Shown: positions 1-18,723, counted from the stretch's first letter. The stretch: 18,723 bases of DNA from Tubiluchus corallicola (GCA_030141605.1 JAQGDQ010001982.1:1-18723); one strand, 5' to 3'. Notes: generated from the sequence alone by a model not told the origin. Numbers and translations: made by a program.

Positions 1-3000
1 TTTGCGAATTTTGTTTTTTCTCATGAGAATGTGCTACATATTTTTGCGAATTTCGTTTTTTCTCACTAGAATGTGGCAACATTTTTTCGAATTTTGTTTT
101 TTCTCACCAGAATGTTACCACATTTTTGCGAATTTTGGTTTTTTCACTCGGGAATGCTGCCACATTTTGCGAGTTTCAGGTTTTTTCTCATGAGAATGTG
201 GCTACATTTTTGCGAATTTTGTTTTTTTCTCATGATAATGTGGCTACATTTATTTTTGCGAATTTCCTTTTTTCTCTCTAGAATGTCGCCACATTTTTTC
301 GAATTTTGTTTTTTTCTCACCAGAATGTTACCACATTTTTGCGAATTTTGGTTTTTTCTCACGGGAATGCTGCCACATTTTGCGAGTTTCAGGTTTTTTC
401 TCATGAGAATGTGGCTACATTTTTGCGAATTTTGTTTTTTCTCATGATAATGTGGCTACATTTATTTTTGCGAATTTCCTTTTTTCTCTCTAGAATGTCA
501 CCACATTTTTACGGATTTTGTTTTTTTCTCACCAGAATGTTACCACATTTTTGCGAATTTTGGTTTTTTCTCACGGGAATGTTGCCACATTTTGCGAGTT
601 TCAGGTTTTTTTCTCACGAGAATGTGGCAACATTTTTGCGAATTTTGTTTTTTCTCATGATAATGTGGCTACATTTTTGCGAATTTTGGGTTTTTTTCTC
701 ACGAGAATGTGGCTACATTTTTGCGAATTTTGTTTTTTTCTCATGAGAATGTGGCTACATTTATTTTTGCGAATTTTGTTTTTTTCTCACTGGAATGTCA
801 CCACATTTTTGCGAATTTTGGTTTTTTCTCATGAGAGTGTTACCACATTTTTGCGAATTTTCGTTTTTTCTCACGTGAATGTCGCCACATTTTTGCGAGT
901 TTTTTTTCTCACGAGAATGTGGCAACATTTTAATTTTGCGAATTTTGGTTTTTTCTCACGTGAATGTCGCCACATTTTGCGAGTTTCAGGTTTTTTCTCA
1001 CGAGAATGTGGCAAAATTTTAATTTTGCGAATTTTGGTTTTTTCTCAGGAGAATGTCTTGACACATTTTTGCGAGTTTCGAGTTTTTTCTCACATGAATG
1101 TGGCAACATTTTTTTTTGCGAATTTCTGTTTTTTATCATGAGAATGCGGCCACATTTTTGCGAATTTTGGGTTTTTTCTCACGAGAATGTCTTGACACAT
1201 TTCTGCGAGTTTCGTGTTTTTTCTCACAAGAATGTGGCTACATTTTTGCGAATTTTGGTTTTCTTCTCATGATAATGTGGCTACATTTATTTTTGCGAAT
1301 TTCGTTTTTTCTCTCTGGAATGTCACCACATTTTTGCGAATTTTGTTTTTTTCTCACCAGAATGTTACCACATTTTTGCGAATTTTGGTTTTTTCTCACG
1401 TGAATGTCGCCACATTTTGCGAGTTTCAGGTTTTTTCTCACGAGAATGTGGCAAAATTTTAATTTTGCGAATTTTGGTTTTTTCTCAGGAGAATGTCTTG
1501 ACACATTTTTGCGAGTTTCGAGTTTTTTCTCACATGAATGTGGCAACATTTTTTTTTGCGAATTTCTGTTTTTTATCATGAGAATGCGGCCACATTTTTG
1601 CGAATTTTGGGTTTTTTCTCACGAGAATGTCTTGACACATTTCTGCGAGTTTCGTGTTTTTTCTCACAAGAATGTGGCTACATTTTTGCGAATTTTGGTT
1701 TTCTTCTCATGATAATGTGGCTACATTTATTTTTGCGAATTTCGTTTTTTCTCTCTGGAATGTCACCACATTTTTGCGAATTTTGTTTTTTTCTCACCAG
1801 AATGTTACCACATTTTTGCGAATTTTGGTTTTTTCACTCGGGAATGCTGCCACATTTTGCGAGTTTCAGGTTTTTTCTCATGAGAATGTGGCTACATTTT
1901 TGCGAATTTTGTTTTTTCTCATGATAATGTGGCTACATTTATTTTTGCGAATTTCCTTTTTTCTCTCTAGAATGTCACCACATTTTTTCGAATTTTGTTT
2001 TTTTCTCACCAGAATGTTACCACATTTTTGCGAATTTTGGTTTTTTCTCACGGGAATGTTGCCACATTTTGCGAGTTTCAGGTTTTTTTCTCACGAGAAT
2101 GTGGCAACATTTTTTTTGTGAATTTCTGTTTTTTCTCATGAGAATGTGGCCACATTTTTGCGAATTTTGGGATTTCTTCTCACGAGAATGTCTTGACACA
2201 TTTTTACGAATTTTGTTTTTTTCTCACCAGAATGTTACCACATTTTTGCGAGTTTCGAGTTCTTTCTTACGAGAATGTGGCAACATTTTTTTTGTGAATT
2301 TTGGTTTTTTCTCATGAGAATGTGGCCACATTTTTGCGAATTTTGGGTTTTTTCTCACGAGAATGTCTTGACACATTTCTGCGAGTTTCGTGTTTTTTCT
2401 CATGAGAATGTGGCTACATTTATTTTTGCAAATTTCGTTTTTTTCTCTCTGGAATGTCACCACATTTTTGCGAATTTTGGTTTTTTCTCACCAGAATGTT
2501 ACCACATTTTCGCGAATTTTGGTTTTTTCACTCGGGAATGTTGCCACATTTTTGCGAGTTTCGAGTTTTTTCTCACGAGAATGGGCAACATTTTATTTTT
2601 GCGAATTTCTGTTTTTTCTCATGAGAATGTGGCCACATTTTTGCGAATTTTGGGTTTTTTTCTCACGAGAATGTGGCTACATTTTTGCGAATTTTGTTTT
2701 TTTCTCATGAGAATGTCGCCTATTTTTTTGCGAATTTTGGTTTTTTCTCTGAGGAATGTCGCCACATTTTGCGAGTTTCAGGTTTTTTCTCACGAGAATG
2801 TGGCAACATTTTTTTTGTGAATTTTGGTTTTTTCTCACGAGAATGTGGCTACATTTTTGCGAATTTTGGTTTTCTTCTCATGAGAATGTGGCTACATTTA
2901 TTTTTGCGAATTTCGTTTTTTCTCTCTGGAATGTCACCACATTTTTGCGAATTTTGTTTTTTTCTCACCAGAATGTTACCACATTTTTGCGAATTTTGTT

Positions 3001-4292
3001 TTTTTCTCACGGGAATGTCGCCACATTTTGCGAGTTTCAGGTTTTTTCTCACGAGAATGGGCAACATTTTATTTTTGCGAATTTTGGTTTTTTCTCACAA
3101 GAATGTGGCCACATTTTTGCGAGCTTCGAGTTCTTTCTTACGAGAATGTGGCAACATTTTTTTTGTGAATTTTGGTTTTTTCTCATGAGAATGTGGCCAC
3201 ATTTTTGCGAATTTTGGGTTTTTTCTCACGAGAATGTGGCTACATTTTTGCGAATTTTGTTTTTTCTCATGAGAATGTGGCTACATTTATTTTTGCGAAT
3301 TTCGTTTTTTTTCTCTGGAATGTCACCACATTTTTGCGAATTTTTGTTTTTTCACTCGGGAATGTCGCCACATTTTTGCGAGTTTCAGGTTTTTTCTCAC
3401 GAGAATGTGGCAACATTTTATTTTTGCGAATTTCTGGTTTTTTCTCTCGGGAATGTCGCCACATTTTTGCAAGTTTCGAGTTTTTTCTCACGAGAATGGG
3501 CAACATTTTATTTTTGCGAATTTCTGTTTTTTCTCATGAGAATGTGGCCACATTTTTGCGAATTTTGGGTTTTTTTCTCACGAGAATGTGGCTACATTTT
3601 TGCGAATTTTGTTTTTTTCTCATGAGAATGTGGCTACATTTATTTTTGCAAATTTCGTTTTTTTCTCTCTGGAATGTCACCACATTTTTACGAATTTTGG
3701 TTTTTTCTCACCAGAATGTTACCACATTTTTGCGAATTTTGGTTTTTTCTCTCGGGAATGTTGACACATTTTTGCAAGTTTCGAGTTTTTTTCTCACGAG
3801 AATGGGCAACCTTTTATTTTTGCGAATTTCTGTTTTTTCTCACGAGAATGTGGCTACATTTTTGCGAATTTTGGTTTTTTCTCATGAGAATGCTTTATCA
3901 CATTTTTGCGAATTTTGGTTTTTTCTCTCGGGAAGGTCGCCACATTTTTGCGAATTTTGTTTTTTTCTCTCCAGAATGTTACCACATTTTTGCGAATTTT
4001 GTTTTTTTCTCACGGGAATGTCGCCTATTTTTTGCGAATTTTGGTTTTTTCTTTGAGGAATGTCGCCACATTTTGCGAGTTTCAGGCTTTTTCTCACGAG
4101 AATGTGGCAACATTTTTTTTGCGAATTTCTGTTTTTTCTCATGTGAATATGGCCACATTTTTGCGAATTTTGGGTTTTTTCTCACGAGAATGTCTTGAAA
4201 CATTTTTGGGAAGTTCAAGTTTTTTCTCATAAGAATGTTACCACATTTTTGCGAATTTTGGTTTTTTCTCACGGGAATGTCGCCACATTTTT
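1..4292. repeat. Tandem satellite array, ~42-44-bp monomer (approximate consensus TTTTTGCGAATTTTGGTTTTTTCTCAYGAGAATGTGGCYACAT); runs off the left edge of the window
   Basis: Continuous monomer repetition is visible directly. There is a 5-monomer period of ~212 bp (CACCAGAATG at 105, 318, 530) and a near-exact 440-bp, 10-monomer duplication (934-1395 vs 1374-1835; ORFs 964..1272 and 1404..1712 are identical). Confidence 0.97.
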
Positions 4293-4660: not shown

Positions 4661-5285
4661 CTTCATTTTACTTGTGTATTTTACTGTGTATTTAGTATAA
4701 TAAACGGTTTCAGTTTTTGTGCAGATATGTAATATAGTGTTCATTCGTTTTCTACAAGTGTTCAACTTCAACTTCATACATGACTTTCACACATATAGTG
4801 GATTAGATACGTTATTCGCATTAAGCAATATTAATATTGCTTATTTGTTACGTTATACACTAAACTGCCGCAGACTCATCCCTTTTGCGTAACTCCTTTT
4901 GTGAGTGCAGTAAAGTAGTTCTTTTTTTCTACATGCAAAAATGTAAATGCCAATTTCATCTAATTGAGAATAGGCTAAACATTTGATCGCCCTTTTCCTT
5001 TGGTGGTAATTTTGTACGTGTGTGCCATTGTAGACAGTATGATTTACAGTTGTTTGTGTGTGGTGTTGATCATTTGAGTTTAAAGTGCTCATAATAAGTT
5101 TGCCACGTTCAAAGAAAACTTTTTTCGTTTGCAAAAGCACACTAAAATTTTATGATGGGTATTAAATCTGGTATCCATTTTATATACAAATAAAAATAAT
5201 TAACAAAAGTATTTCTGTTTTTCTTGTCTTCATACATCTGACAATTATTTTATTTTTATTCGTTAAGGTGTTTCGTTTGATATAT

Positions 5286-5389
5286 TGTTGCTATGCATCA
5301 ACGTAGCATTTGTTGCCATGCATCAACGTAGCATCTGTTGCCATGCATCAACGTAGCATTTGTTGCCATGCATCAACGTAGCATTTGTT
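5286..5389. repeat. 25-bp minisatellite, 4 copies
   Basis: TGTTGCCATGCATCAACGTAGCATT at 5286, 5311, 5336 and 5361, with at most one substitution per copy. Confidence 0.95.
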
Positions 5390-6168: not shown

Positions 6169-9100
6169 CTGAAAAAAATATGAAGGCATTATTTGCAGTA
6201 AAAATTCGGCGGCATCAGTTGTCTAACGCATATGTTGTTATGAATAAATTTAGGAAAACGAATTTCGGTGAATAATTAATTGATTTATCAGATGAATTAG
6301 ATGCAGATGATAAACTCACGCCTCCCTGATTTCGTCAAGGAAATTTATACGGTTGAACAAGAAACTCATCTAGCTGACGCTCGAATTTAATGAGTTAAAA
6401 TTGTCACACGATTGTAGAAAGGACAGGTGTATAATCGAGAAGACGCTATTGTTTAACTAGAATAGATGCAGAGTAAAAGATAATTAGTAGAAGGTCATTA
6501 GCGATTAGTTGTCGCGTGCAAATAAGTTAATGAAGAGAGCCAAGGTCTAGTATCAGTGCTCATCGAACATTAGAAGGAAATCAAAAGTTATGCCGCCCAG
6601 ATGGTGGTAAAAGAAGTCAAAGCGGCGGAATTTAAGAAAGTCATTACTGGTTATAAAATCAGAAAATGAAAGGAACTGTCACTGTCCAGGAGGTAGGATG
6701 TTGCCAGATGCTGCAATACCACGAAGGTCAGCTCTTCGAAATATAAGCTCTAGAAAAATATTACAAAGACACACAACGGGGTGACGTACGTGAGTGTCAC
6801 ATACACCACGAGCGAGAAGGGGAGTCTGACAGTGGTTTGCTACCATACCGTGTGTCCGAGACATCTTCTGCAAGCCAAGAAGAAGCAACGTTTGCCCAGC
6901 GTAGAAGAGGAATCTGCGTACTTAGCATTGACTGAGCACTGGTGCTATGTAGTCTCTATAGGAAACAGGGATCAGGCCAATTGTAGTGGTACATTGGTCA
7001 ATCCACAAGTATCTGATATAGTTGTAGCCGAAACGTTGTATGAATTAAGCACCTTCAGTGCATCATACCTATATAGTAAATCATTAAGTGAGTAGCATCT
7101 TCTCTGGAGCTAGACATTAGTTGTAAACGCCCACCGGCGTATAAGACCGAATCTTGTATTGGAATCAGAGTTGATTAAATTGTAACTGTAAGTTCAATAA
7201 AGTCTATTCACTGTATTAACGTAGACATTGAGTTTGTGAATGATTAAAGTGTTATCGGTAACTGACATTTGCAACACTAAATCCTCGATATGAACTTGAG
7301 GAGATTCGCAGTGTACATAAGAGCTCAATTGCGGGAGCTAAGCTTGTAAACTTGAGGGATAATGATCTGACTCACAACGCAAGGTCAAAGTGAAAGTCGT
7401 GTAGGACAAGATCATTGCCTTAGCGACTTAACTAAAGCCCTCAGAGTCGGGTAATCGAGATCCGATCAATTACCTGTAAGCGATCGATAAGCGAATCTAG
7501 AATCTAAAACATCAATTAATTCAATCATTCAAGATCACTCGATACGGCAAATTATTATACGATCACATTATTGAGTGAGAACTTGATAATGTTTAACATA
7601 TGAAACTTTATTCATAAAGGAGCAAGCGAGTACCATATTCAAACATTTCGACAAATGGCACGCATGAAATACTGACGCATCCCTCTAGGCACGATTTACC
7701 AATAGAAATTCACCACAGAAATATAATGCAATGGAACTACATTTAAACTACGTCTAACAATCAAAAATGATTTAGCTGTTCAATGCAGCGTAAGTCTTAA
7801 TTTTGCTGATGTCATGCTGCAAAATTATGTCTTCCAGTAAAAGTTTTAGTAAAAAAACTAATCATGGTAAGTAGATTCTTGTAGTAGAATGCCAAATTGT
7901 AAAAATGAGATCAAAATGAGTTAATGACAAAAATAAGACAATGTTAGTAGATTAAATAATATGCTACATACTTTACTGTATAAGCTATAAATACGTTGCA
8001 CTAGTAGAAATGGCGGTTTAGCTAAGCTGTTGCTCACGAATATTTGTGTATTCCCGTGGAGAATTCCCATCCCGTTTTGTAATGCAGAATCACAAATTTG
8101 ATCTTGTATTATCCTCGGTTGAACAACATTCCACTCACAAGGTATAACTAGAATTTTCTCTGAAAAATAAAACTAATAACAATCAGTATTTCCTGTAGCA
8201 GCATTACGCAATTAATAGAATTAACAGTTGTTTTATTGGTAAAGAAATCTACTTGCTAAATGGCTTGTTTTTGTTATTCTATAAACATTTTTAAACAATG
8301 CCACGGTTCAGAAGAAAAGGAAGTTCTGTGAAAATATTTCTTTTTTGACGTATTGTAAACCCCAATGGATGTAGCCATTGGTAGCAAAATATGACAGCCA
8401 TGGATATGACGGCAGCACCCCATCCAGGGGTCAGCAATATGCTATTGTTTTTAAAAGCAATCCATATTCGATAACTAATCCATGAGATATTCATAGGATG
8501 CTCTACATTTTTTGTGTTAAAGCAAAATAGAAGGATTTTTGTAAATGATTGTGGCGGAACCGGTAGCAAAAATGATCTTCCAAGGTCCTGTAGTCATCTA
8601 GTCACGCGACTTGACATTGCTTAACTTTACAGTGGGCAAAAAGCTAATCCATCTTGTCACTGATTAAAACAGTAGGTATGGAATGAGTTGAACATGCGTT
8701 TTAGAAGTAAAACATTTTACAGGTAAAAGCAGGTAGTCATGATTTAGCTTTTGTGCTACCGTTTATGTGTTTTTTCCTAATCTATTAAATGATTTACTAA
8801 TGTATTAAATATTAAGCAATATAATGCAGCAAGCTTTTCCACCTGCCCAGGTGGTCTGTCACAATAGCAAAACGTATTAATAATGAAACATGATTCTTAG
8901 AAGAACAAGGAACAAATCAGAGAAACTAATCTATAGCGAATCATCGTCTTTGACCGTTTAACTGTATCCGACGAAAATAAATACAGGCAATTTTTAATGA
9001 CAAAAGAAACAATTTATTTAATTCGATTCTGATGTTGCTAAATATTCGTATTCTGCGTGCAGTAATATAATTTAGCATCATTAGAAGTTCTTTGCAAAAG

Positions 9101-12100
9101 AGAAATGAAAAGTTTCTTTGCATTAATTCCCAGCTGCGTGTTATGGATGCTCGTTACTAATTAGAAAACCTTCATTAATGAGACCACCACTTACCTGGAT
9201 GATCAAATCCATACCGATTTAGAATATATTGATCGTGACCCGGCGTAGGTTTGTTAATGTATGCCTCAAGCAGAGCCAGGATATCATTGGAGAATCTTGT
9301 TTTTCTCAATTTTACCAAGTCCATTAGAAGAAGACCAGAGTTAAAACCTTAAAATACATGCTTCATAATAAGTAATTGTTCCTATTCAATGGTAATTGTA
9401 TCCCGCGATAATTGACTAATCTAATTATAGCCTAGGGTTATTGACAAATTTTAAAAACATTTTTGTAAAACACGCTATCCAACGCATAAAATAGGATGTA
9501 GGTCAGCAAGTGCATCACGATTGGCCGTCGCCATATTCGTCAGTATCATCGCCAACGCCATCTTCGTCAGTGTCTTCACAATCAGTGTTCACAAATTTTC
9601 ACGTTAGTTCCAAACAATTTAATATTAATTATTGTTTTGTTTTCCTCCAAAATTCAACTATTACATAATCTCAGTCTACTTTCTAATTATTAAGTTTGTA
9701 TAATTGCTACAATATTCCACAGTTTTCAACACTTTGTTACAATTGCTTACAAAGTTAATCCCTTGCACAATCATTAATTAATAAGAAGCTGGTACTGCTG
9801 CATCATAACGAAGTTCTTTGCTCCTCTCACATCTTTACCCACTTTAACCGTTTTTCCCAACTGAAAACTGTTTCTGCCACCAAAGGTAGTCAGCCTAAAG
9901 TGGAGATGTCCAAAGCCGGGACCCAGCGACTACTCAACCGAGTGCCAAGTTCGGTCACTATGAGGCATGTGCGTCTCCGTTTAGCCATTTGTCGCTGGAC
10001 TATGGCCGGTTGACACCACCCGGGAGGGGGTAGGAGTACGACTTTGCTATCAGTCTGAGAGGCTGCGAGGTCAGCCTCTGCCAGTAAGAGAGTCACGTTC
10101 AGACTGCAACCTATGTAAGCTTGTCACCCATGGTGCACTTCCCCTTTTTGTTCTCGGTACTTGGATGTTTCCCATGCGTCTCCTAAGCCACTTAGTTGTA
10201 AAATGTGGCTGGTTGGCACCCTCGTAAGGATTAGGAGTACGGCTTGCTCGACAGTCTGTGAGATTGCCCTCTCAACCTCTACTTGGGACGAAATCAAAGC
10301 CAGACTGCAACCTTTTAGCCCGTAAGATGCACTACTGGTGGTGCCCTTCCGTCAATTCCTTAAAGTTTCAGATTCACCCCCGGTCGAGGGTGACGTCCTA
10401 GCCGTTAATGGCACCTCCTGCGGTGTACTTCCCTTTCTGTTCTCGAACCTTGGATATTTCCTCTGCGTCTCCTAAGCCACTTAGTTGTAAAATGTGGCTG
10501 GTTGGCACCCTCGTAAGGATTAGGAGTACGGCTTGCTCAACAGTCTGTGAGATTGCCCTCTCAACCTCCGCTTGGGACGAAATCAAAGCCAGACTGCAAC
10601 CTTTTAAGCCACACGATGCACTACTGGTGGTGCCCTTCCTCCAGTTCCTTTAAGTTTCAGAGTAGCGTCCTACATTTTCCTCCCTGTGTGGGAGTTTACT
10701 GGTTGGGACCTTGTGGAGGTGTAGGCACGATTTTCCGACATTCAAATCTGCTGCTTACTGTATGGTAATTCAGTTCCTCACTGCCTGGCCTGGAGGATTT
10801 CCAACAGCAGTCATTACGTACAAATGATTACAGTTTTGGTGGCTCTTGATCATTTGACAATTTCACCAGATGCAATAACTTTCTACTCAACTGAATTGGG
10901 AATATGGAGTACGGAGTGAACAATAGTACTTATTATGTCAGACTTCCTACCATGATTTTACCTGCCCAGTAATTTATCGTTGATCACAACATGTGATCAA
11001 GTTCTGGTTGTCCTTTACGTAATTATACAACTTTGATGTAAAACTCCCCTCTAATTCGTTGAGCAGTAGCGTCTGAAGTTTTACGCAACGTATTTATTAA
11101 CCTCAGCATATTTCGTATTTAGAGGTCGTTTATGCATGCTTAGTTATTGACACCTTATTTTAGCTACTACTAAAAACACCAGAAAGCATGTGAATATACT
11201 GAACAAGCTGGATGAGTAAAAAAAATAATGAAAAGCTAGCTTATCAGATTAATCTACTGAATAATTCACGATTTAAAATTAAAACGTCATTTCCTCGTCA
11301 TTCCAGTGTGCACCACTGTCCATTTTCAAAACTAACGCTATTCACTACGTCACTCACGTTATTAAAAGTAATTTAAATTTTGCTTAGTTAGCGAAGACGG
11401 AACTCTGTTGTGTTTTGTTTCACTCGGAAGGCTCGTAGAGAAAACCAGAAAACACGTCGTCAAATTAAACTAGTTTATTAAGCGAGAATTATACAACACA
11501 AAAGTATTAAGAAAACGCGAAGTGATTACACTAAACGTGAAAATCTGGAAAACGTTTAAGTGTATCCGAAAATGTAAGTATACAAGGGAATTTGTAAGTG
11601 GCGTCCGTGTGAATCCGTGTGTCCGTCTCAGCGGCCTGCTTCGCCTTATATAGCGCGCCCAAGAAGCTTCCAGAAGTTTTGCCCTAGAAAATTCCACACG
11701 GTAAGACGATTATTCCAACAGAACATTCTACAATGTTTCATGTAATTCTAATAGACGCCAGCGATCTGCACAACAAACTCTAATTAGTTTTCGAATTTTA
11801 CTCAATAAAAATGAAACGATAGTTGAAAAACTTAATTAACGACCGAGGAGCCCAATTACAGTAGTGACGACATTTTCAACAACATCAACATTCGATGAGA
11901 GTCTTGCACGTGTTTCCGAAAGCGAAAATTGAAGTACAGGGCGGGCTATTGTACAACAATCAATGTGATATACAAAAAAAAATCGGCAAATAATATTTGT
12001 AAGTTAAACACTGTGTTCCTCATGAGCTCTCGATCGTGGGCACTACGTCACCACTGAACTTCTGTGAAATAAGAGGTGCAGCCCTTTTTTCGGCAACGCG

Positions 12101-15100
12101 TTTCCGAGATGTAGGCGCTAGAGCTCGTCTGTCTTGTCGTAGAGAACATGGGAAGTCATTACGTTACGGATATTAACTAAAATTATTAAAAGATTTTTTT
12201 ACCGTTAATGCCATAAATTCGAGTATCGGTCGTTCTCTTTTTCACAACTTGATCAAAACCATGTTCCTCGACGTCATCTGCCATGATCACTCCCAGTGCT
12301 TGAGTTCTATTCATTTTATTAAAATAAGACCAGAGTTCTTCCAGTGGTCTCATTATAATCATATCTACGTCTAAGTAAATGACTTTTTCCAGTGTAGAAA
12401 GAATGTCCTGTTAATGAGAAAGTTTCAATTAATAGTTGATAGTAACTTATTAGAAATAGGATTTTATCATTTTCATAAGGTAATCATCGCAAAAACAGTG
12501 AATTTCTGTTTTAATTGAATAGGGTCTGTTACGACTAGTGCAGATGGGGCAGGCCTGACTAGATGTAAGGTAGTCACTGGAGGTTGCTTGGCCGAGCAAT
12601 AAGTTTACATAAAATTTTACTTTAAAGAGGGATCTGCCCACAAACTCCAGATAGTGGCTTCGCAGCAAGGGTAGTCTACGGGGGGCGCTACCACTTCAAG
12701 ATGGTATTGGTTCTTGTGGGATTCTGTATTAGCACTTGTCGGTTAATCTAATTAAATGCAACAGGACAATGATGCAACAATAATAATTATAGTATACTGT
12801 TATCACTTTTAATGACAAAACATTAGGCACGAAAATCAAACCGACGAAATATGTCATTAAAGCACAATACATCAAAACAAAACATTGGCAAAAATATCCG
12901 AAAAAGCTATTGGGCAAAACTGAAAGCAAAATTAAGCGATAACACCAAAAATAAACAGTGTTCATAACTAACATATTATAATGACCTGGTAATATTTCTA
13001 TTGGACATAAGATAAACTAGCCGTAGCAAATGTTTGTCTAAGGGCTTAACTTAACTACCAGCCACCCTGGGGAAATGCTAGCAAGTGAACGGGTTAAGAG
13101 CAGCATTCAGGGCTGTGACGTCACGTGTAAATTAGCAGCATCCAGGAAACATTTCGTTGCTAAACTTCATGCACAATTTCAATGTCTGGCATGACTTCAA
13201 CTCGTGTAGGATCACGTTGAATACAACTAATCCGTCTGTACCCATCGCACGCTGCATAGTAAGGCAAAGAATAAATCAACTTACAGATCGGGGTCCCGTG
13301 AAATAATCTGAAGCTCTAGACACCTCTTGCTGGCCTCCAATAAACAAGAGAACTGTCGTCTATCGCTCAGCAGGTAGTCCTCCAGCCACAAGTACTATCA
13401 CCATAACATCGGGTGCTTGGGACTCCATTAACTGTCCAAAATCCTCACCCATCAACTATGACGGCAGCAATCAAAAGTAGTTAAATGAACAAACACTTTC
13501 ATTCGAAAGTTCAGCAAAACTGCAATTACGAAAAGTCTGACCTATGTAATGTTTTCAGGTCCAATACCAAAGCTCAACTCTAATTCTACCTTGTACACCT
13601 GTACCGTGACGAGTTTTCTGGGTCACCTCTCCGCTTTCACAAGTTGATCAGACGGCTTCATATCGCGCACAAAATTGAATGCTACAAACCAACCCGCAGA
13701 ACTTAAAATTCCTAAATCTTGGGTTTAAAGGGCAACTGAACCATTTTTAATACTTGTTTTCAGGTTTAGTTGATAATATGACAATAGCTTGGTTGTCATA
13801 TTGATTATTATTATTGATAACTTTCTGGGGGAAAGTAAACAGTATGTTACAGGGTCTTTATTGTAAGTCAGTGAATGCGTGAGTGAGTGAATGTGTGGGT
13901 GAACTTATGTGTGTGTGCGCGCGTGCGTGCGTGTGCGTGCGTGCGTGTGAGTGACTGTGTTAGTGTGTGAGAATGAGTGTGTGAGTGAATGAGTAGATGA
14001 TTGACTGAAAGTGTGTGTGAGGGTGAATGTGTGAGTGAGTGAATGTGTAAGTGAGAAAGTGGGTGTGTGAATGAATGAGTGGTGACTGAGTGAAAGTATG
14101 TGTGACTGTGTGTGAGGTGAGTGTGTGTGTGTGTGCGTGCGTGCGCTTGCATATGTGTGTGTAAGTGCGTGAGTGTGTGAACTGATAATAAGTGATCATC
14201 ACTACCATAAAATGGGACATAATCCTCTGGGCTATTTGGTATGTGGAATACACAAAGGCCGCACAAATACGCAGAGACTAAATTATGTAATGAATCCAAT
14301 GCACCTTGAAGAAGTTTTTTCCAGCAATTTTTTGTCATGTTGTTTTAAAACTTCTGTATCTTTGTAAGAATCTGAGGAAGTGCCTAAAGTTTTTCTGTTC
14401 ATACAAAAGCGTGGGTGTTACATTAGAGCGTAAATTTCAAACTATTACCTTATTTCGCTTTTATAATATCGTGATCAAAACTTCGACAATTTTTTTACTT
14501 CGCCCAGTAGAATAACGAAACAATTTACTCACAGGAAGAAAAAGTGGTATACTTTGGCCTGGTTTAAACTTTTTCACATGTTCGCGAGGTACGTCTATCA
14601 TATCAAGTGGATAAAAGATGTAATCCGCCTTCCTATACTTTTGCCATTCCTGTAACTAAAAAAATGATGAAAGAAAGTTATTTTAGTGTTCCAAATTTCA
14701 CATTTGGGATCAAAGGGATTTTTAAGAATTTGGTCCATTTCGCTTGCGTTCTTACTTTGACCAGACTGTACCCAATCATAACACGTAAAAAACATTTATA
14801 ATAAGGACGGCAAAAGCAATAGTTTTAAAAACGTAAAAACTATCGTTTAAAACTCAGCAACTCTCACCATCAACAGTAAATTTCAGCAAATCTCCAATAT
14901 TAAATCTCCATGTCACTGCACACTGATTAAATTATTTGTGTTAATCTCCTTGTTGTTTCCATAAGTTACAGCAGTAGGTAAAACCACATAAATTTCATTG
15001 TATGTATTATGCTACAATGACAATAAATTGTTTGCTTACTTAATGCACGCACCACAATGAGTGAAGTGAAGACAATGCACACATTACAAAGATGTCATAT

Positions 15101-16500
15101 GATGCCCATATCACAATGATTGCACACAATGGACAGATTACTATCAATGAACACAATGCACACATTACAAAGATGTCATACGATGCACATATCACAATGA
15201 CTGCACACAATGGACAGATTACTATCAATGAACACAATGCACACATTACAAAGATGTCATACGATGCACATATCACAATGACTGCACACAATGGACAGAT
15301 TACTATCAATGAACACAATGCACACATTACAAAGATGTCATACGATGCACATATCACAATGACTGCACACAATGGACAGATTACTATCAATGAACACAAT
15401 GCACACATTACAAAGATGTCATACGATGCCCATATCACAATGACTGCACACAATGGACAGATTACTATCAATGAATACAAGGTACGGAACACATTTTTAG
15501 TAATCAGTCTAAACACAGATCACAATGACTGAACACAATGCATGCATCCGAATGACTGAAAACAGTGCATACATCGCAATGGCTGAAAACAGTGCATACA
15601 TCGCAATGACTGAAAACAGTGCATACATCGCAATGGCTGAAAACAGTGCATACATCGCAATGGCTGAAAACAGTGCATACATCGCAATGGCTGAAAACAG
15701 TGCATACATCGCAATGGCTGCAAACAAAGCACACTGCACAAACTGCGGTGATTGCATACGTTGCACATATCACAATGACTGAACATAATGCACACATCAC
15801 AATGACTGCACACTACGCACATATCACAGTGAATGAACATGGTGTACACATCGCAATGACTGAAAACAATATACCCATCACAATGACTGAACACAATGCA
15901 TACATCACAATGGTTGCAAACAAAGCACACGCTGATGACATTCGATGCACACAACACAATGACTGAACACAATGCACACATCATCATGGCTTAACACAAC
16001 TACATGCACAACAAATGACGAGTCATAATCATCAGTATGTAAATAGTTTGCTGTGTATGGGTGAACCATAGGACGTACCATTTGATAGCCCCAGAGGAAA
16101 AACCGAATCTAGATTCATACTAAAAGAGAATAGAGAGTTTCTTTACACCACTATGCCTGTATTAAAAATTAAATCAATGCTTGTCACATTACTCTGCAAA
16201 CTTGTGTCAGTAAATAAGTTCGCTCATTAGCTAACATAATAGCTACCTATTTAATGAACCGAGTACACGTTGCAATGACTCACCTTCATTTTCACAATGT
16301 CTTTTGTTTCAGAACTGCTGACTATGATATGTAGTTGAACAGGCACTGAAGTCACCATTAAGGCACTTTTCAACATAACTAAAGCCTCCTCTGTGTATAT
16401 CTCGCTGCCAGCAATACTAATAGCCAAGTGTAGTACACTTTGAAACTGCTTGTATCCATCGAATGAACTCTGTTTAAAAGAGAGCTGATTAACATAACAG
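6013..16500 (-). CDS. GXYLT1: Glucoside xylosyltransferase-like gene (GXYLT1/2/shams family, GT8); 5'-partial, 6 exons in window; exact orthology uncertain
   Basis: Manual splicing of join(16500..16284,14655..14533,12407..12203,9347..9195,8159..7972,6168..6013) gives one uninterrupted frame with canonical AG/GT sites and intron phases 0,0,1,1,0. Motifs occur in GXYLT order: LHLAI...EEALVMLKSA, FKP...LFLP, IYLDVD (DxD), GFNSGLLLMDL, DQ.ILN, PCEWN, ILHGN. Confidence 0.88.
6402..7408 (+). mobile_element. Probable LTR of an LTR retrotransposon; boundaries uncertain
   Basis: Starts TGTCACACGA. Candidate ends are TGACA (7267) or TCGTGTAGGACA (7408, flanks AAAT/AGAT as an imperfect 4-bp TSD). TATA-like motifs at ~7070 and ~7140 are followed by AATAAA at 7196; no coding capacity recognised. 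Confidence 0.45.
7972..8159 (-). CDS. GXYLT-like exon (EKILVIPCEWN...MGILHGNTQIF...LYSK)
   Basis: Acceptor TTATTTTTCAG, donor GTATGT, 188 nt. Carries the PCxWN and ILHGN motifs of GT8 xylosyltransferases. Confidence 0.92.
9195..9347 (-). CDS. GXYLT-like exon (GFNSGLLLMDLVKLRK...GHDQYILNRYGFDHP)
   Basis: Acceptor TATTTTAAG, donor GTAAGT, 153 nt. Carries the GT8 NSGxxLxxL and DQxxLN motifs. Confidence 0.93.
10330..10371 (-). pseudogene. 18S rRNA-derived fragment (copy B)
   Basis: Minus strand CTGAAACTTTAAGGAATTGACGGAAGGGCACCACCAG matches the conserved eukaryotic SSU sequence CTGAAACTTAAAGGAATTGACGGAAGGGCACCACCAG (recalled, not searched) at 36/37 positions. Not a functional rRNA gene. Confidence 0.85.
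10604..10660 (-). pseudogene. 18S rRNA-derived fragment (copy A)
   Basis: 34/37 match to the same SSU segment, continuing TAGTGCATCGTGTGGCTTAA against 18S GAGTGGAGCCTGCGGCTTAA (15/20). Confidence 0.8.
11406..11775 (-). mobile_element. Solo LTR (370 bp) with 5-bp target-site duplication
   Basis: Perfect 7-bp inverted termini TGTTGTG...CACAACA, flanked by AACTC at 11401-11405 and 11776-11780. Minus-strand TATATAA (11652-11646) is followed by AATAAA (11479-11474). Confidence 0.88.
11646..11728 (-). promoter_or_regulatory. LTR promoter: TATA box with adjacent heat-shock elements
   Basis: A full nGAAnnTTCnnGAAn (AGAAGCTTCCAGAAG, 11662-11676) lies ~10 bp upstream of TATATAA, with further GAAnnTTC at 11687-11694 and 11721-11728. 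Confidence 0.6.
12203..12407 (-). CDS. GXYLT-like exon with DxD motif (DILSTLEKVIYLDVDMIIMRPLEELW...IYGIN)
   Basis: Acceptor TTCTCATTAACAG, donor GTAAAA, 205 nt. The YxDxD...RP...W pattern is typical of GXYLT; the phase 1 end joins the GFNSG exon. Confidence 0.93.
13870..14180. repeat. Compound (GT)n/(GTGA)n/(GTGC)n microsatellite
   Basis: Directly visible low-complexity run; it explains the His/Thr-rich ORFs. Confidence 0.95.
14533..14655 (-). CDS. GXYLT-like exon (LQEWQKYRKADYIFYPL...KKFKPGQSIPLFLP)
   Basis: Acceptor TTTTTTTAG, donor GTGAGT, 123 nt, phase 0/0. Corresponds to the family segment KKLFKPCASQRLFLP. Confidence 0.9.
15050..15995. repeat. 27-bp minisatellite with an 81-bp (3-mer) higher-order block
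   Basis: 81-bp period in ~15072-15478 (CATTACAAAG at 15082, 15163, 15244...). A pure 27-bp period GCATACATCGCAATGGCTGAAAACAGT occupies ~15555-15720, with diverged 27-mers beyond. Confidence 0.95.
16284..16500 (-). CDS. GXYLT-like exon (…VLHLAISIAGSEIYTEEALVMLKSALMVTSVPVQLHIIV…KMK)
   Basis: Lies inside ORF 16251..16580; donor GTGAGT; acceptor TTTGCTTTTGCAG, with an alternative TTTTAAACAG ~30 nt downstream. Resembles the family segment HLAVVACG..EE...MLKSA. Confidence 0.85.
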
Positions 16501-16629
16501 CTGCAAAAGCAAATTAGGACACTTAAATTTTTCCCACAATTGTTAATATTATTTACCAGTTTTAAACTATCAGTATGCAAAAGTTTCTAGTGTAGGCCTG
16601 GTTAATTTACCTGGCCAGGTAAATAAATT

Positions 16630-18723
16630 TAACAGCAGCAGCAACTACTCTATTTTCTTTTTTTTCATTTTTTTCTCTGCTTGATTCTTTTCCTACTTAT
16701 TTATCTTTTACTTTTCTTATGAGATGACCACATCTCAAACTAACTGCATTTGTCCTGTGTTTAATAAAACCGTGAGGTACAAACAGCGTGAATTGTGTTG
16801 TGACTGCTGCAATAGATGGCTTCATCTGAAATGTACTTACTTAACTGTAAATGATTATGAAGCCTTGGCCGCAGAAACTGATGAATGGTTTTGCCACGTT
16901 TGTCTTCAGAAAATTTTCCCATTTAATCATTTAACTGACGATGACGATTTTAATCATGTTATAAGAAATTCGCTACTTGATTCTATAATTTGTAACGATC
17001 AGTATAATTTAGATCTTTTCCAGACAACACAAAATAGTGAGAACGCAAATTTGCCATTAGAGGATATTGATCCTGATATACATTTTTTCAATCAAAAAGA
17101 TTCTTTTCCAAAAAGTAAATACTACGACAATGAGCAATTTTTGTCTATGCTTTCAAACATAAATTTCAACAACAAATTATCAATGATCCATCTGAATATA
17201 AGAAGTTTATCTGCTAATTATGACCACTTAACTGTACTGCTGCAAATGTTACAAACTCAATTCTCACTAATTGCGTTAACTGAAACATGGTTAAATGAAG
17301 ATACAGAAAAAATGTTTAATTTGCCTGGATATACACTGGTGAATAGAAATAGGAGGAATAAAAAGGGAGGTGGTGTAGGGTTGTTCATTAAATCAGACAT
17401 ACCGTTTGTAGTGAGAAACGACTTAACATCAAGCAACTCTGACCTTGAAAGTATTTTTATCGAAATTCACAAAGTAAAAGGCAAAAACATAGTAGTCGGT
17501 GTGATCTACAGACCACCCGGGCAAAACCCACAAACATTTATTGAACAGTTAACTACAAAACTATCAATAATAAATAAACAGAATAAGCAGTTATTTTTGT
17601 TAGGGGACTACAATTTGAACTTATTAAATCACTCTTCGCATCAAGACACGGCAGAGTTTCTTGAGACTATTATTACTAATTATGTCTTTCCAGTTATTAC
17701 TTGTCCTACTCGAATTACAGCACATAGCTCTACATTAATTGATAATATTCTGACAAATGTTATACAGCATCAGTATAGAGCTGGCAATCTCTTAGTAGAT
17801 GTCACCGATCACTTACCAATTTTCTTAATCATTGACTTAAACATAGCAAAATCTCAAACTAGTAATATCGACAAAGTAATATACAATAACCATGTAAAAA
17901 ATAAATTATTAAGTGATATAGAATCAGTCAACTGGGAAGAATTACATAGTATTTCAGATCCTGAAGCAGCTTATAATCTATTTCTGGATAAATTTAACGA
18001 AGTCTACTTTAAAAATATAAAAACTACTGATGCTTCCAAGAAAACTAATGTTATTAAAAATCCTTGGATAACTCCAGCCATATTAACCAGTATCAGGCGC
18101 AAAAATAAAATGTATAATTCATTAATGAAACAAACCTCAGACGCAGCTGGGACTGACTATAAACAATATCGCAATATTATCCTTCTACCTTTTTCTTTAC
18201 ACCAATCACGGAATCTGATATTATAAGTATGTGCAAGTCATTTGATCGAAATAAGTGAGCTGGCAGGGATAATTTGCGCCCCAAAGTTATTATAGATGTA
18301 ATAGAAAGTATCATTACCCCTTTGACACACATAATTAATAATTCACTTAAAACTGGCACTGTTCCTTCTAAATTAAAACAATTAATTATTATCCCTGATT
18401 CTCTGGACGTAAATAATTATAGACCTATCTCGCTGTTACCGTTTTTCTCAAAAATATTGGAAAAAGTTGTTTACAATAAAAATTTATCGTATTTGGATCA
18501 TCAAAATATAATAAACAATAAGCAGTTTGGTTTTCGGAAAAACAGTTCAACCGAATTGGCTTTGATAAACATAGTAGAGAGTATAATTAAATGCATTGAA
18601 CAAAATAAAGTAGCAGTAAGGATATTTTGTGACCTCTCTAAGGTCTTTGACACAGTTAATCATAAAATACTTCTTGCAAAACTACATCATTACGGTCTTA
18701 GAGGGGTAGCAAACGCATGGATA
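16630..18723 (+). mobile_element. CR1/L2-group LINE ORF2 region (PHD finger, APE endonuclease, reverse transcriptase); inactivated; continues past the window edge
   Basis: ORF 16724..18226 has a PHD finger (CPVF...CDCCNRWLHLKC...WFCHVC) and APE motifs HLNIRSL, LTETWL, GGGVGLFI, YRPP, GDYN, IDNI, TDHLP. A second frame from 18181 gives NYRPISLLP..SKILEK, QFGFR, DLSKVFDTVNH. Confidence 0.95.
16724..18723 (+). pseudogene. Disrupted LINE ORF2 (endonuclease-reverse transcriptase)
   Basis: A frameshifting junction at ~18177 lacks the usual linker, an in-frame TGA sits at 18256-18258, and the usual KKG motif is missing between IIIP and DSLDVNNYRPIS (~18396). Confidence 0.88.

What the first reader, a model, noticed from the sequence alone, without database searches (positions are those of the whole stretch)
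10315..10660. 18S rRNA fragments placed directly before the structured modules: a possible rDNA-targeting non-autonomous retroelement
Seen: two sense copies of the conserved SSU segment CTGAAACTTAAAGGAATTGACGGAAGGGCACCACCAG (36/37 and 34/37) each sit immediately 5' of a module, and copy A continues to GGCTTAA two bases before the module's first G. The module start GGTTGCAGTCTG(AAC) also resembles the 18S sequence just upstream of that segment (GGTTGCAAAGCTGAAAC). Known: R2 elements insert in rDNA, use HDV-like ribozymes whose P1 5' strand can come from the rRNA target, and produce short internally deleted derivatives (SIDEs); 18S-targeting non-LTR elements exist (R8 in Hydra, R7 in Anopheles). 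Inference: this may be a multimer of ribozyme-plus-18S-target units from an 18S-specific element, now lodged outside rDNA. I do not recognise it as a described family.
Basis: partly seen in the sequence, partly recalled or inferred. Interest (0 to 1): 0.85.

Follow-up and report, generated by a model that had tools for sequence, protein, structure and literature searches.

The report
Ribozyme array carrying 18S rRNA pieces
An animal genome holds a 1-kb insert of four predicted self-cutting RNA folds separated by copies of one short 18S ribosomal RNA segment, likely the remnant of a small non-coding retroelement descended from one that inserted into 18S genes.

Summary
Two 57-nt sense copies of 18S (Rfam SSU model 1137-1193; copy A E=3e-11) end two bases before modules A and B on the minus strand. 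The array is larger than reported: four HDV-like ribozyme folds (Z degenerate, A, B, C) in about 9842-10815. Each intact module starts at a sequence matching 18S 1127-1133, directly upstream of the piece. Cleavage would therefore leave monomers with upstream target at the head and downstream target at the tail. Sequencing contigs show other copies of the modules, a shared end at 9851 with differing flanks, alleles that leave the window just before the array, and an older, diverged 18S piece before module C in other copies. This argues against a one-off capture. Not shown: any join to full-length 18S, an RT partner, self-cleavage or transcription. A, B and the window's C deviate from the canonical active site. 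Best reading (0.45): a concatemer of non-autonomous RNAs descended from an 18S-targeting, R8-like element, now outside rDNA. Main rival (0.33): a retrozyme-like family with passively captured 18S. No earlier scan note on this element turned up in five look-ups.

The parts
9842..10815 (-). Whole inserted array (edges approximate; the 10815 edge is placed by eye at the start of module Z)
   Evidence: About 50% GC against 33-37% in the flanks; contigs of X2 and X3 leave the window at 9828 and one of X4 at 9841
10666..10810 (-). Module Z: degenerate HDV-like fold. It has the J1/2 three-way junction, P2, P3, a 7-nt L3 and a P1 3' strand, but no P1 5' strand, no catalytic C, and A at the G25 position
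   Evidence: Strands located; J1/2 fold; similarity to C p=0.02 and to A p=0.23; not found by the descriptor
10604..10660 (-). 18S rRNA piece A, sense, model 1137-1193
   Evidence: Rfam RF01960 E=3.3e-11; 34 of 37 core, 15 of 20 tail
10464..10601 (-). Module A: HDV-like fold. P1 10601-10597/10504-10500 (5 bp), J1/2 three-way junction 10596-10541, P2 10530-10523/10472-10466, P3 10520-10518/10509-10507, L3 8 nt, P4 10497-10477, predicted catalytic C 10476
   Evidence: Pair table; descriptor hit
10372..10463 (-). Spacer after A; its part at about 10397-10432 may be an old 18S-like piece
   Evidence: 21 of 38 to the 3' part of piece A, not significant (p=0.24); no SSU hit in Rfam
10315..10371 (-). 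18S rRNA piece B, sense, model 1137-1193
   Evidence: 36 of 37 core and 13 of 20 tail by eye; 33 of 37 to piece A
10175..10312 (-). Module B: HDV-like fold, 135 of 138 identical to A; predicted catalytic C 10187
10112..10174 (-). Spacer after B with a shortened old 18S-like piece; other copies carry it at fuller length
   Evidence: Loose ends at 10146 (X1, X2, X3) and 10130/10131 (X1); the window copy alone is not significant (p=0.19)
9970..10111 (-). Module C: HDV-like fold of a second subfamily (92 of 142 to A) with the same helices; L3 is 11 nt here and 7-8 nt in other copies; predicted catalytic C 9984
   Evidence: variant contigs (tables 3, 4, 7)
9842..9969 (-). Terminal segment shared with other copies; common end at 9851
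   Evidence: Loose ends before 9851 in 3 contigs of X1, 3 of X2 (agreement 0.68) and 1 of X4

Best explanation
The array is likely a reverse-transcribed chain of short non-coding retroelement RNAs descended from an 18S-targeting, R2/R8-like retrotransposon, each unit being a predicted HDV-like ribozyme set between the 18S sequence upstream and downstream of one site. Shown: four HDV-like folds, two fresh 18S pieces with the same bounds, heads matching the adjacent upstream 18S, a dispersed low-copy family, and alleles that leave the window before the array. Inferred steps: (1) an ancestor sat in 18S genes near model position 1136|1137 and was co-transcribed with rRNA; (2) its ribozyme used 18S 1127-1131 as the P1 5' strand and cut about 10 nt upstream of the site, as R2 ribozymes do at -9 to -36 in 28S; (3) the transcript ran on into downstream 18S, leaving a 57-nt tail that could anneal to the nicked target for priming; (4) a borrowed RT joined monomers head to tail by template jumps, capturing 18S sequence more than once (old and fresh pieces), and placed the chain outside rDNA. 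This copy is probably decaying.
For: HDV-like architecture: a hand-made descriptor finds A, B and C and nothing else on both strands of 18.7 kb; 3 hits against a mean of 0.02 and a maximum of 1 in 300 shuffles of the array. A and C keep P1, the J1/2 closing stem, P2, P3 and P4 at only 92 of 142 identity. Contigs of other copies of C give an L3 of 7-8 nt; the 7-nt form with its flanks matches, by eye, 9 of 11 letters of the conserved R2 core CCUCCUCGUGG (motif from PMC5035012). The head (model 1127-1133) and the piece (1137-1193) are neighbours in 18S, and the P1 3' strands of A, B, C and headless Z all end in the complement of the first five head bases. Other copies carry an older piece before C: 17 of 21 to the consensus over 1158-1178 and 7 of 7 over 1187-1193, counted by eye. 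Divergence between units A and B is uneven, 3 of 138 in the module against 18 of 99 in the flanking pieces (Fisher p=2.6e-5), which one plain tandem duplication would not give. Precedents: P1 from rRNA, and target duplications absorbed into 5' ends (PMC3774820 sections 14 and 18); template jumps and SIDEs (PMC3414825 sections 8 and 9); rRNA-like 3' UTRs in fish R2 (PMC5035012 section 13); R8 inserts in 18S.
Against: No join to full-length 18S and no RT partner was seen. The only RT in the window is a CR1-like fragment 6 kb away on the other strand. The shared end at 9851 runs into differing flanks that do not look like rRNA by eye, and it has only a 5-A run. No significant target-site duplication or terminal repeat. 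The head match is short (6 of 7). Rfam finds no HDV-type family on the window, the region or the core of C. The descriptor was tuned on these modules. P1 has only 5 bp; position 20 is C in A, B and C; L3 of the window's C is 11 nt; the constrained HDV-like fold is 6-8 kcal/mol above the free MFE, though P2 was left out of it; fold z-scores are weak (-0.6 to -2.1 for the four modules). The 20-nt tails share non-18S changes with the old piece, so the fresh cores may come from recombination rather than read-through. Three of the four runs are one sample, which may be the window's source.
Confidence: 0.45

Rival explanations
1. A retrozyme-like family that uses HDV-like instead of hammerhead ribozymes: tandem 200-290-nt units self-cleave, may circularise, and are spread by an unspecific RT. 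The 18S pieces are passengers picked up by template jumps onto abundant rRNA, with no 18S targeting.
For: Units of 289, 201 and 261 nt fall in the 150-300 bp range of animal retrozymes (PMC7761336). Copies are dispersed with differing flanks. RT jumps onto snRNA and tRNA are documented. No rDNA join was seen.
Against: It does not explain why the head matches the 18S bases directly upstream of the piece, or why old and fresh pieces cover the same segment. The units are heterogeneous, and the predicted circles are only 58-67% paired with no gain from closing. The animal retrozymes described carry type I hammerheads.
Confidence: 0.33
2. Serial site-specific insertion with a long target-site duplication: each unit inserted into the 18S piece and duplicated 57 bp, so piece-unit-piece arrays grew in place, in the manner of the long duplications of rotifer R9.
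For: Unit A is flanked on both sides by the same 57-nt segment. Units of different subfamilies (Z, A/B, C) are stacked. R9 is titled as making an exceptionally long duplication (reference title only).
Against: Duplicated targets start out identical, yet pieces A and B differ at 9 of 59 while the modules differ at 3 of 138 (p=0.001). The tails share non-18S changes.
Confidence: 0.1
3. One-off capture of an rRNA fragment next to a ribozyme-bearing repeat, followed by local tandem duplication.
For: A and B form a 231-nt direct repeat at 92% whose edge coincides with the start of the piece, so their two junctions are not independent. Self-alignment of piece A to the spacers is not significant.
Against: An older 18S-like piece stands before module C in other copies; divergence is uneven across the repeat; copies occur at other loci.
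Confidence: 0.08
4. The modules are not ribozymes but another structured RNA or decayed rRNA-derived sequence.
For: No Rfam ribozyme hit; weak fold z-scores; deviations from the active-site consensus.
Against: All HDV elements stand in the right order in three modules, the loop is canonical in other copies, and shuffles almost never give the pattern.
Confidence: 0.04

Closest known systems
R2 SIDEs and R2/R1 hybrid SIDEs (Eickbush & Eickbush 2012, PMC3414825; abstract and sections 8, 9 read)
   Same: Short non-coding unit with an HDV-like ribozyme at the 5' end, tied to an rRNA gene sequence, needing an RT in trans
   Different: SIDEs are insertions in 28S genes at the R2 or R1 site and end in the 3' end of an autonomous element. 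This is a multimer, tied to 18S, lying outside rDNA, with no known parent
R2 ribozymes cleaving in upstream rRNA; Hydra R8 (PMC3774820 sections 14-16 and 18; PMC5035012 passages and section 13)
   Same: P1 5' strand matching rRNA upstream of a putative site; target-like sequence absorbed into element ends; R8 targets 18S
   Different: No ORF here; several ribozymes in tandem; a 5-bp P1 stacked on a J1/2 three-way junction. Whether the site equals that of R8 could not be checked (the figure and supplement with the Hydra junction are not readable)
Animal non-LTR retrozymes (PMC7229834, PMC7761336, bioRxiv 10.64898/2026.07.22.740005; passages read)
   Same: Tandem units of 200-300 nt, each with one self-cleaving ribozyme, non-coding, dispersed
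   Different: Those carry type I hammerheads; the passages seen mention no rRNA piece in the units; the units here are heterogeneous and few
SINE28 and 5S-derived SINEs/Cassandra (review PMC10946416, passages read)
   Same: Mobile elements that contain rRNA-derived sequence
   Different: The table rows seen list 5S, 28S and IGS sources and no 18S; no ribozyme is mentioned for them

Membership tests
HDV-like ribozyme | Nested double pseudoknot: P1, P2, P3, P1.1, P4 in HDV order | tested here: met
   Pair tables for A, B, C; descriptor 3 hits against 0.02 in shuffles (descriptor tuned on these modules)
HDV-like ribozyme | P1 of 6-7 bp starting at G1 | tested here: inconclusive
   5 bp then two mismatches in all three; about a quarter of R2 ribozymes have 1-2 top mismatches and one has a 4-nt P1 (PMC3774820 section 16)
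HDV-like ribozyme | 3-bp P3 with a 7-8-nt L3 holding G25 | tested here: inconclusive
   Met in A and B (8 nt, G at position 25); not met in the window's C (11 nt) or in Z (A at 25); met in other copies of C. G25A impairs cleavage (PMC13635239)
HDV-like ribozyme | U20 pairing with G25 | tested here: not met
   C at this position in A, B and C; U only in Z
HDV-like ribozyme | Catalytic C75 in J4/2 with a downstream A | tested here: met
   C at 10476, 10187 and 9984 with A three bases on; absent in Z
HDV-like ribozyme | Match to a curated Rfam HDV-type model | tested here: not met
   No hit at E up to 1 on the window or up to 10 on the region and on the core of C
HDV-like ribozyme | Self-cleavage 5' of G1 | not testable with these tools
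   Needs a transcription assay
SIDE (R2-type non-autonomous element) | Inserted at a fixed site in rRNA genes | tested here: not met
   This copy has non-rRNA flanks.
SIDE (R2-type non-autonomous element) | HDV-like ribozyme at the 5' end of a short non-coding unit | tested here: met
   the only ORFs of 80 aa or more over the array are 80-84-aa frames
SIDE (R2-type non-autonomous element) | 3' end shared with an autonomous element | not testable with these tools
   No genome is held
R8/R7 18S-specific retrotransposons | RT-coding ORF | tested here: not met
   None in the array; the nearest RT is a CR1-like fragment at 16685-18723 on the plus strand
R8/R7 18S-specific retrotransposons | Junction at the R8 or R7 site of 18S | not tested
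   Kojima 2006 is not held; none of the passages read gives the site
Animal non-LTR retrozyme | Tandem 150-300-bp units, each with a ribozyme | tested here: met
   289, 201 and 261 nt
Animal non-LTR retrozyme | Type I hammerhead ribozyme | tested here: not met
   The fold is HDV-like; no hammerhead family hit
Animal non-LTR retrozyme | Expressed as circular monomers | not testable with these tools

The most novel reading that the evidence does not exclude
An undescribed class of minimal 18S-homing retroelement: HDV-ribozyme multimers whose self-cleaved monomers begin with the 18S sequence upstream of one site and end with the 57 nt downstream of it, so that both ends can base-pair with the cut rDNA target. 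It would join the SIDE and retrozyme ways of life and point to an unknown 18S-specific RT in this lineage. As a recalled, unverified lead, R8 is said to insert 37 bp upstream of R7, and the fresh core here is 37 nt long.
Probability: 0.25. Interest if true: 0.78.

Novelty: new variant of a known kind. Interest (0 to 1): 0.55.

Why it matters
The papers read name Hydra R8 as the one R2-lineage element in 18S (R7 is recalled), and ten literature searches listed no non-autonomous, ribozyme-bearing 18S element or HDV-type retrozyme; Repbase, Dfam and most subscription papers could not be searched. If the reading is right, the array marks a new 18S target site and its autonomous RT partner, which matters for the evolution of target specificity and for rDNA-targeted insertion tools. 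It would also be a natural record of how target sequence is absorbed into element ends. If the 18S is only a passenger, it is still a tandem HDV-ribozyme repeat of a type not found in those searches, but of modest interest.

Tried and rejected
No genome is held for the window. Pattern scans for the module gave only chance matches or nothing: viral contigs 0 and 6 hits (none of the 6 scored with the core profile), metagenomes 1 hit (read: bacterial-type coding DNA, not a module), prokaryote genomes 1 hit (read; profile E=0.49). A scan of viral contigs for 18S context found 0. Phage blastn of 9850-10300 found no match. These collections hold little animal DNA, so the blanks say little. No RNA holder was listed. 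Reads were laid only on 9000-10300, so the two fresh 18S junctions and the far edge of the array were not seen. Old 18S-like pieces inside the window's own spacers and modules: not significant in 6 of 6 shuffle tests (p=0.19-0.98) and no SSU hit; only the contig variants support an old piece. A fifth module at 9945-9880: no similarity to A, C or Z (p=0.10-0.98), and other copies have about 20 more bases there; rejected. Terminal repeats and target-site duplications: the best are 8-9-nt matches, about what chance gives by my estimate. Group I intron, lariat-capping ribozyme, SAM riboswitch: considered from recalled motifs, no Rfam support; rejected. Weak SNORD10 (E=1.9-3.7) and RNaseP-T (E=4.1) hits are chance. 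Host identity: not resolved; the two named relatives of the CR1-like protein are cnidarian at 36-37% identity, too distant to place it. The host-gene exon gave no protein or PDB hit. Five look-ups of earlier findings gave two unrelated notes.

Full report
Setting. The window is AT-rich animal-type DNA with a 42-bp satellite at 1-4292, minisatellites and a CR1-like PHD/endonuclease/RT fragment at 16685-18723 on the plus strand. Exon-like frames on the minus strand at about 16254-16559, 14500-14620 and 7921-8150 suggest a glycosyltransferase-8 gene around the array. This rests on Atlas hits under 0.9 (a lead only) and on my recall of xylosyltransferase motifs, so the intronic position is likely but not shown. 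No genome is held. The feature is an island of about 50% GC at roughly 9842-10815.

The 18S pieces. Copy A aligns to the eukaryotic SSU model at E=3.3e-11: 34 of 37 over model 1137-1173 and 15 of 20 over 1174-1193. Copy B is 36 of 37 and 13 of 20 by eye. Both are sense to the modules and end two bases before G1. The mismatches in the two cores are private to each copy (33 of 37 between them), while the tails share three non-18S changes. Scans of the whole window or region missed the pieces; they were found only when the stretch was cut close to them.

The modules. On the minus strand A (10601), B (10312) and C (10111) have the HDV order: a 5-bp P1, a J1/2 three-way junction closed by a 7-bp stem, P2 of 7 bp with one bulge, 3-bp P3, L3, a two-base P1.1 strand, P4, then C with an A three bases on. 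A descriptor that I tuned on them finds these three and nothing else on either strand, against a mean of 0.02 hits in 300 shuffles of the array. C differs from A at a third of positions (92 of 142) yet keeps every helix. A fourth module, Z (10666-10810), has the junction, P2, P3, a 7-nt L3 and a P1 3' strand but no head, no catalytic C and A at G25. Against activity of the window's copies: position 20 is C in A, B and C; P1.1 in A and B is U-G plus U-A; L3 of C is 11 nt; Rfam gives no HDV-type hit; fold z-scores are weak. R2 ribozymes tolerate much of this variation (PMC3774820 section 16), and a fast nematode ribozyme has a non-G-C P1.1 (PMC13635239 passages). Contigs of other copies of C shorten L3 to 7-8 nt (tables 3, 4 and 7), and the 7-nt form matches 9 of 11 letters of the conserved R2 core given in PMC5035012 (counted by eye). 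I class them as HDV-like folds, activity untested.

Other copies. Four runs hold the region; X1-X3 are one sample, possibly the window's source, and X4 is a second study. Contigs were laid on 9000-10300 only (69, 53, 19 and 15 records laid; 32 of 158 pieces and part of each table shown). In X1 single-allele contigs have depth 173-206, while bins over modules B and C sum to 1611-4183. The tool warns that this is no copy number; it suggests some further copies, not hundreds. The window's allele at 9799-10053 has single-allele depth (200). Contigs of X2 and X3 leave the window at 9828 and one of X4 at 9841, which fits alleles without the array, though the rejoin on the far side was not seen. Seven contigs (3 in X1, 3 in X2, 1 in X4) share the array's end at 9851 and continue into differing flanks. 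Loose ends at 10146 (X1, X2, X3) and 10130/10131 (X1) show that other copies have, before module C, an older 18S-like piece: 17 of 21 to the consensus over 1158-1178 and 7 of 7 over 1187-1193, counted by eye; the window's copy has lost part of it. At 10210 all six X1 contigs and one X4 contig have a G in the P1.1 strand where the window has A, whereas X2 and X3 show no such difference.

Geometry. The Rfam consensus upstream of the piece matches the module head at 1127-1133 in 6 of 7 positions; in C the likeness runs on to about 1143 with two gaps (13 of 17 by eye). An Rfam scan of that head alone found nothing, so this is suggestive only. Head and piece are neighbours in 18S. A monomer released by cleavage at G1 would read: upstream 18S (P1), ribozyme body, spacer, downstream 18S. 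That is what an element inserted near 1136|1137 and cut about 10 nt upstream would give, in line with R2 cleavage at -9 to -36 in 28S (PMC3774820 section 14). The two fresh junctions at 1137 are not independent, since the A/B repeat ends there. Between units A and B the module differs at 3 of 138 and the flanking pieces at 18 of 99 (p=2.6e-5). Since even the loops are identical, mosaic assembly or conversion is at least as likely as selection; either way it is not one plain duplication, and it speaks against the pieces being simple target-site duplications.

Mechanism and rivals. I put 0.45 on descent from an 18S-targeting R2/R8-like element, with monomers joined by RT template jumps (documented for R2, PMC3414825 section 8) and repeated uptake of target sequence (PMC3774820 section 18; PMC5035012 section 13). 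I put 0.33 on a retrozyme-like family with passenger rRNA, 0.10 on serial insertion with long duplications, 0.08 on one-off capture and 0.04 on a non-ribozyme. The join to rDNA, the RT partner, cleavage and expression are all unshown.

Comparison and novelty. It works like a SIDE in having a 5' HDV-like ribozyme tied to an rRNA site, and like a retrozyme in being a tandem of 200-290-nt ribozyme units, but it fails a defining test of each (not in rDNA here; not a hammerhead). Ten searches listed nothing describing this combination. Papers seen: PMC3774820 passages and sections 14, 15, 16, 18; PMC5035012 passages and section 13; PMC3414825 abstract and sections 8, 9; PMC3636483 passages and section 8; passages only of PMC7650587, PMC10946416, PMC6765202, PMC13635239, PMC7761336, PMC7229834 and bioRxiv 10.64898/2026.07.22.740005. 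Kojima 2006, PMC4498411 and PMC3308841 were not held. The supplement of PMC3774820 with the Hydra ribozyme could not be read and bears directly on whether this is simply R8-derived. R7, and the 37-bp distance between R8 and R7, are recalled and come from no call. Verdict: a real feature, a new variant of a known kind, interest 0.55.

Noticed in passing
window 10530-10523, 10241-10234, 10040-10033 (minus): The P2 5' strand of A, B and C is complementary (8 pairs, one G-U) to 18S model 1120-1127 just upstream of the head. In an rRNA co-transcript it could form a competing helix that damps cleavage. An 8-pair match can arise by chance; a lead only.
   Followed up: partly
window 9927-10028, run X2 (tables 5 and 5c): One contig joins a module core with a different P1 3' strand directly to the terminal segment, which suggests a further subfamily.
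   Followed up: no
window 16685-18723 (+): CR1-like retrotransposon fragment with PHD finger, endonuclease and RT domains, broken by a stop near 18226.
   Followed up: partly
window 1-4292: 42-bp satellite, about 99 copies, with an 88-bp period and longer near-exact repeats.
   Followed up: no
window 15067-15999 and 5285-5389: 27/81-bp minisatellite arrays and a 25-bp tandem repeat.
   Followed up: no
window 16254-16559, about 14500-14620, about 7921-8150 (minus): Likely exons of a glycosyltransferase-8 gene that would hold the array in an intron on the same strand (weak evidence).
   Followed up: partly
window 9000-9151: Two alleles at equal depth in X2 differ at 12 of 152 bases, pointing to a highly heterozygous animal.
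   Followed up: no
window about 6416-7266 (+): By eye, a stretch running from TG to CA with a poly(A) signal near its end; possibly a solo LTR.
   Followed up: no
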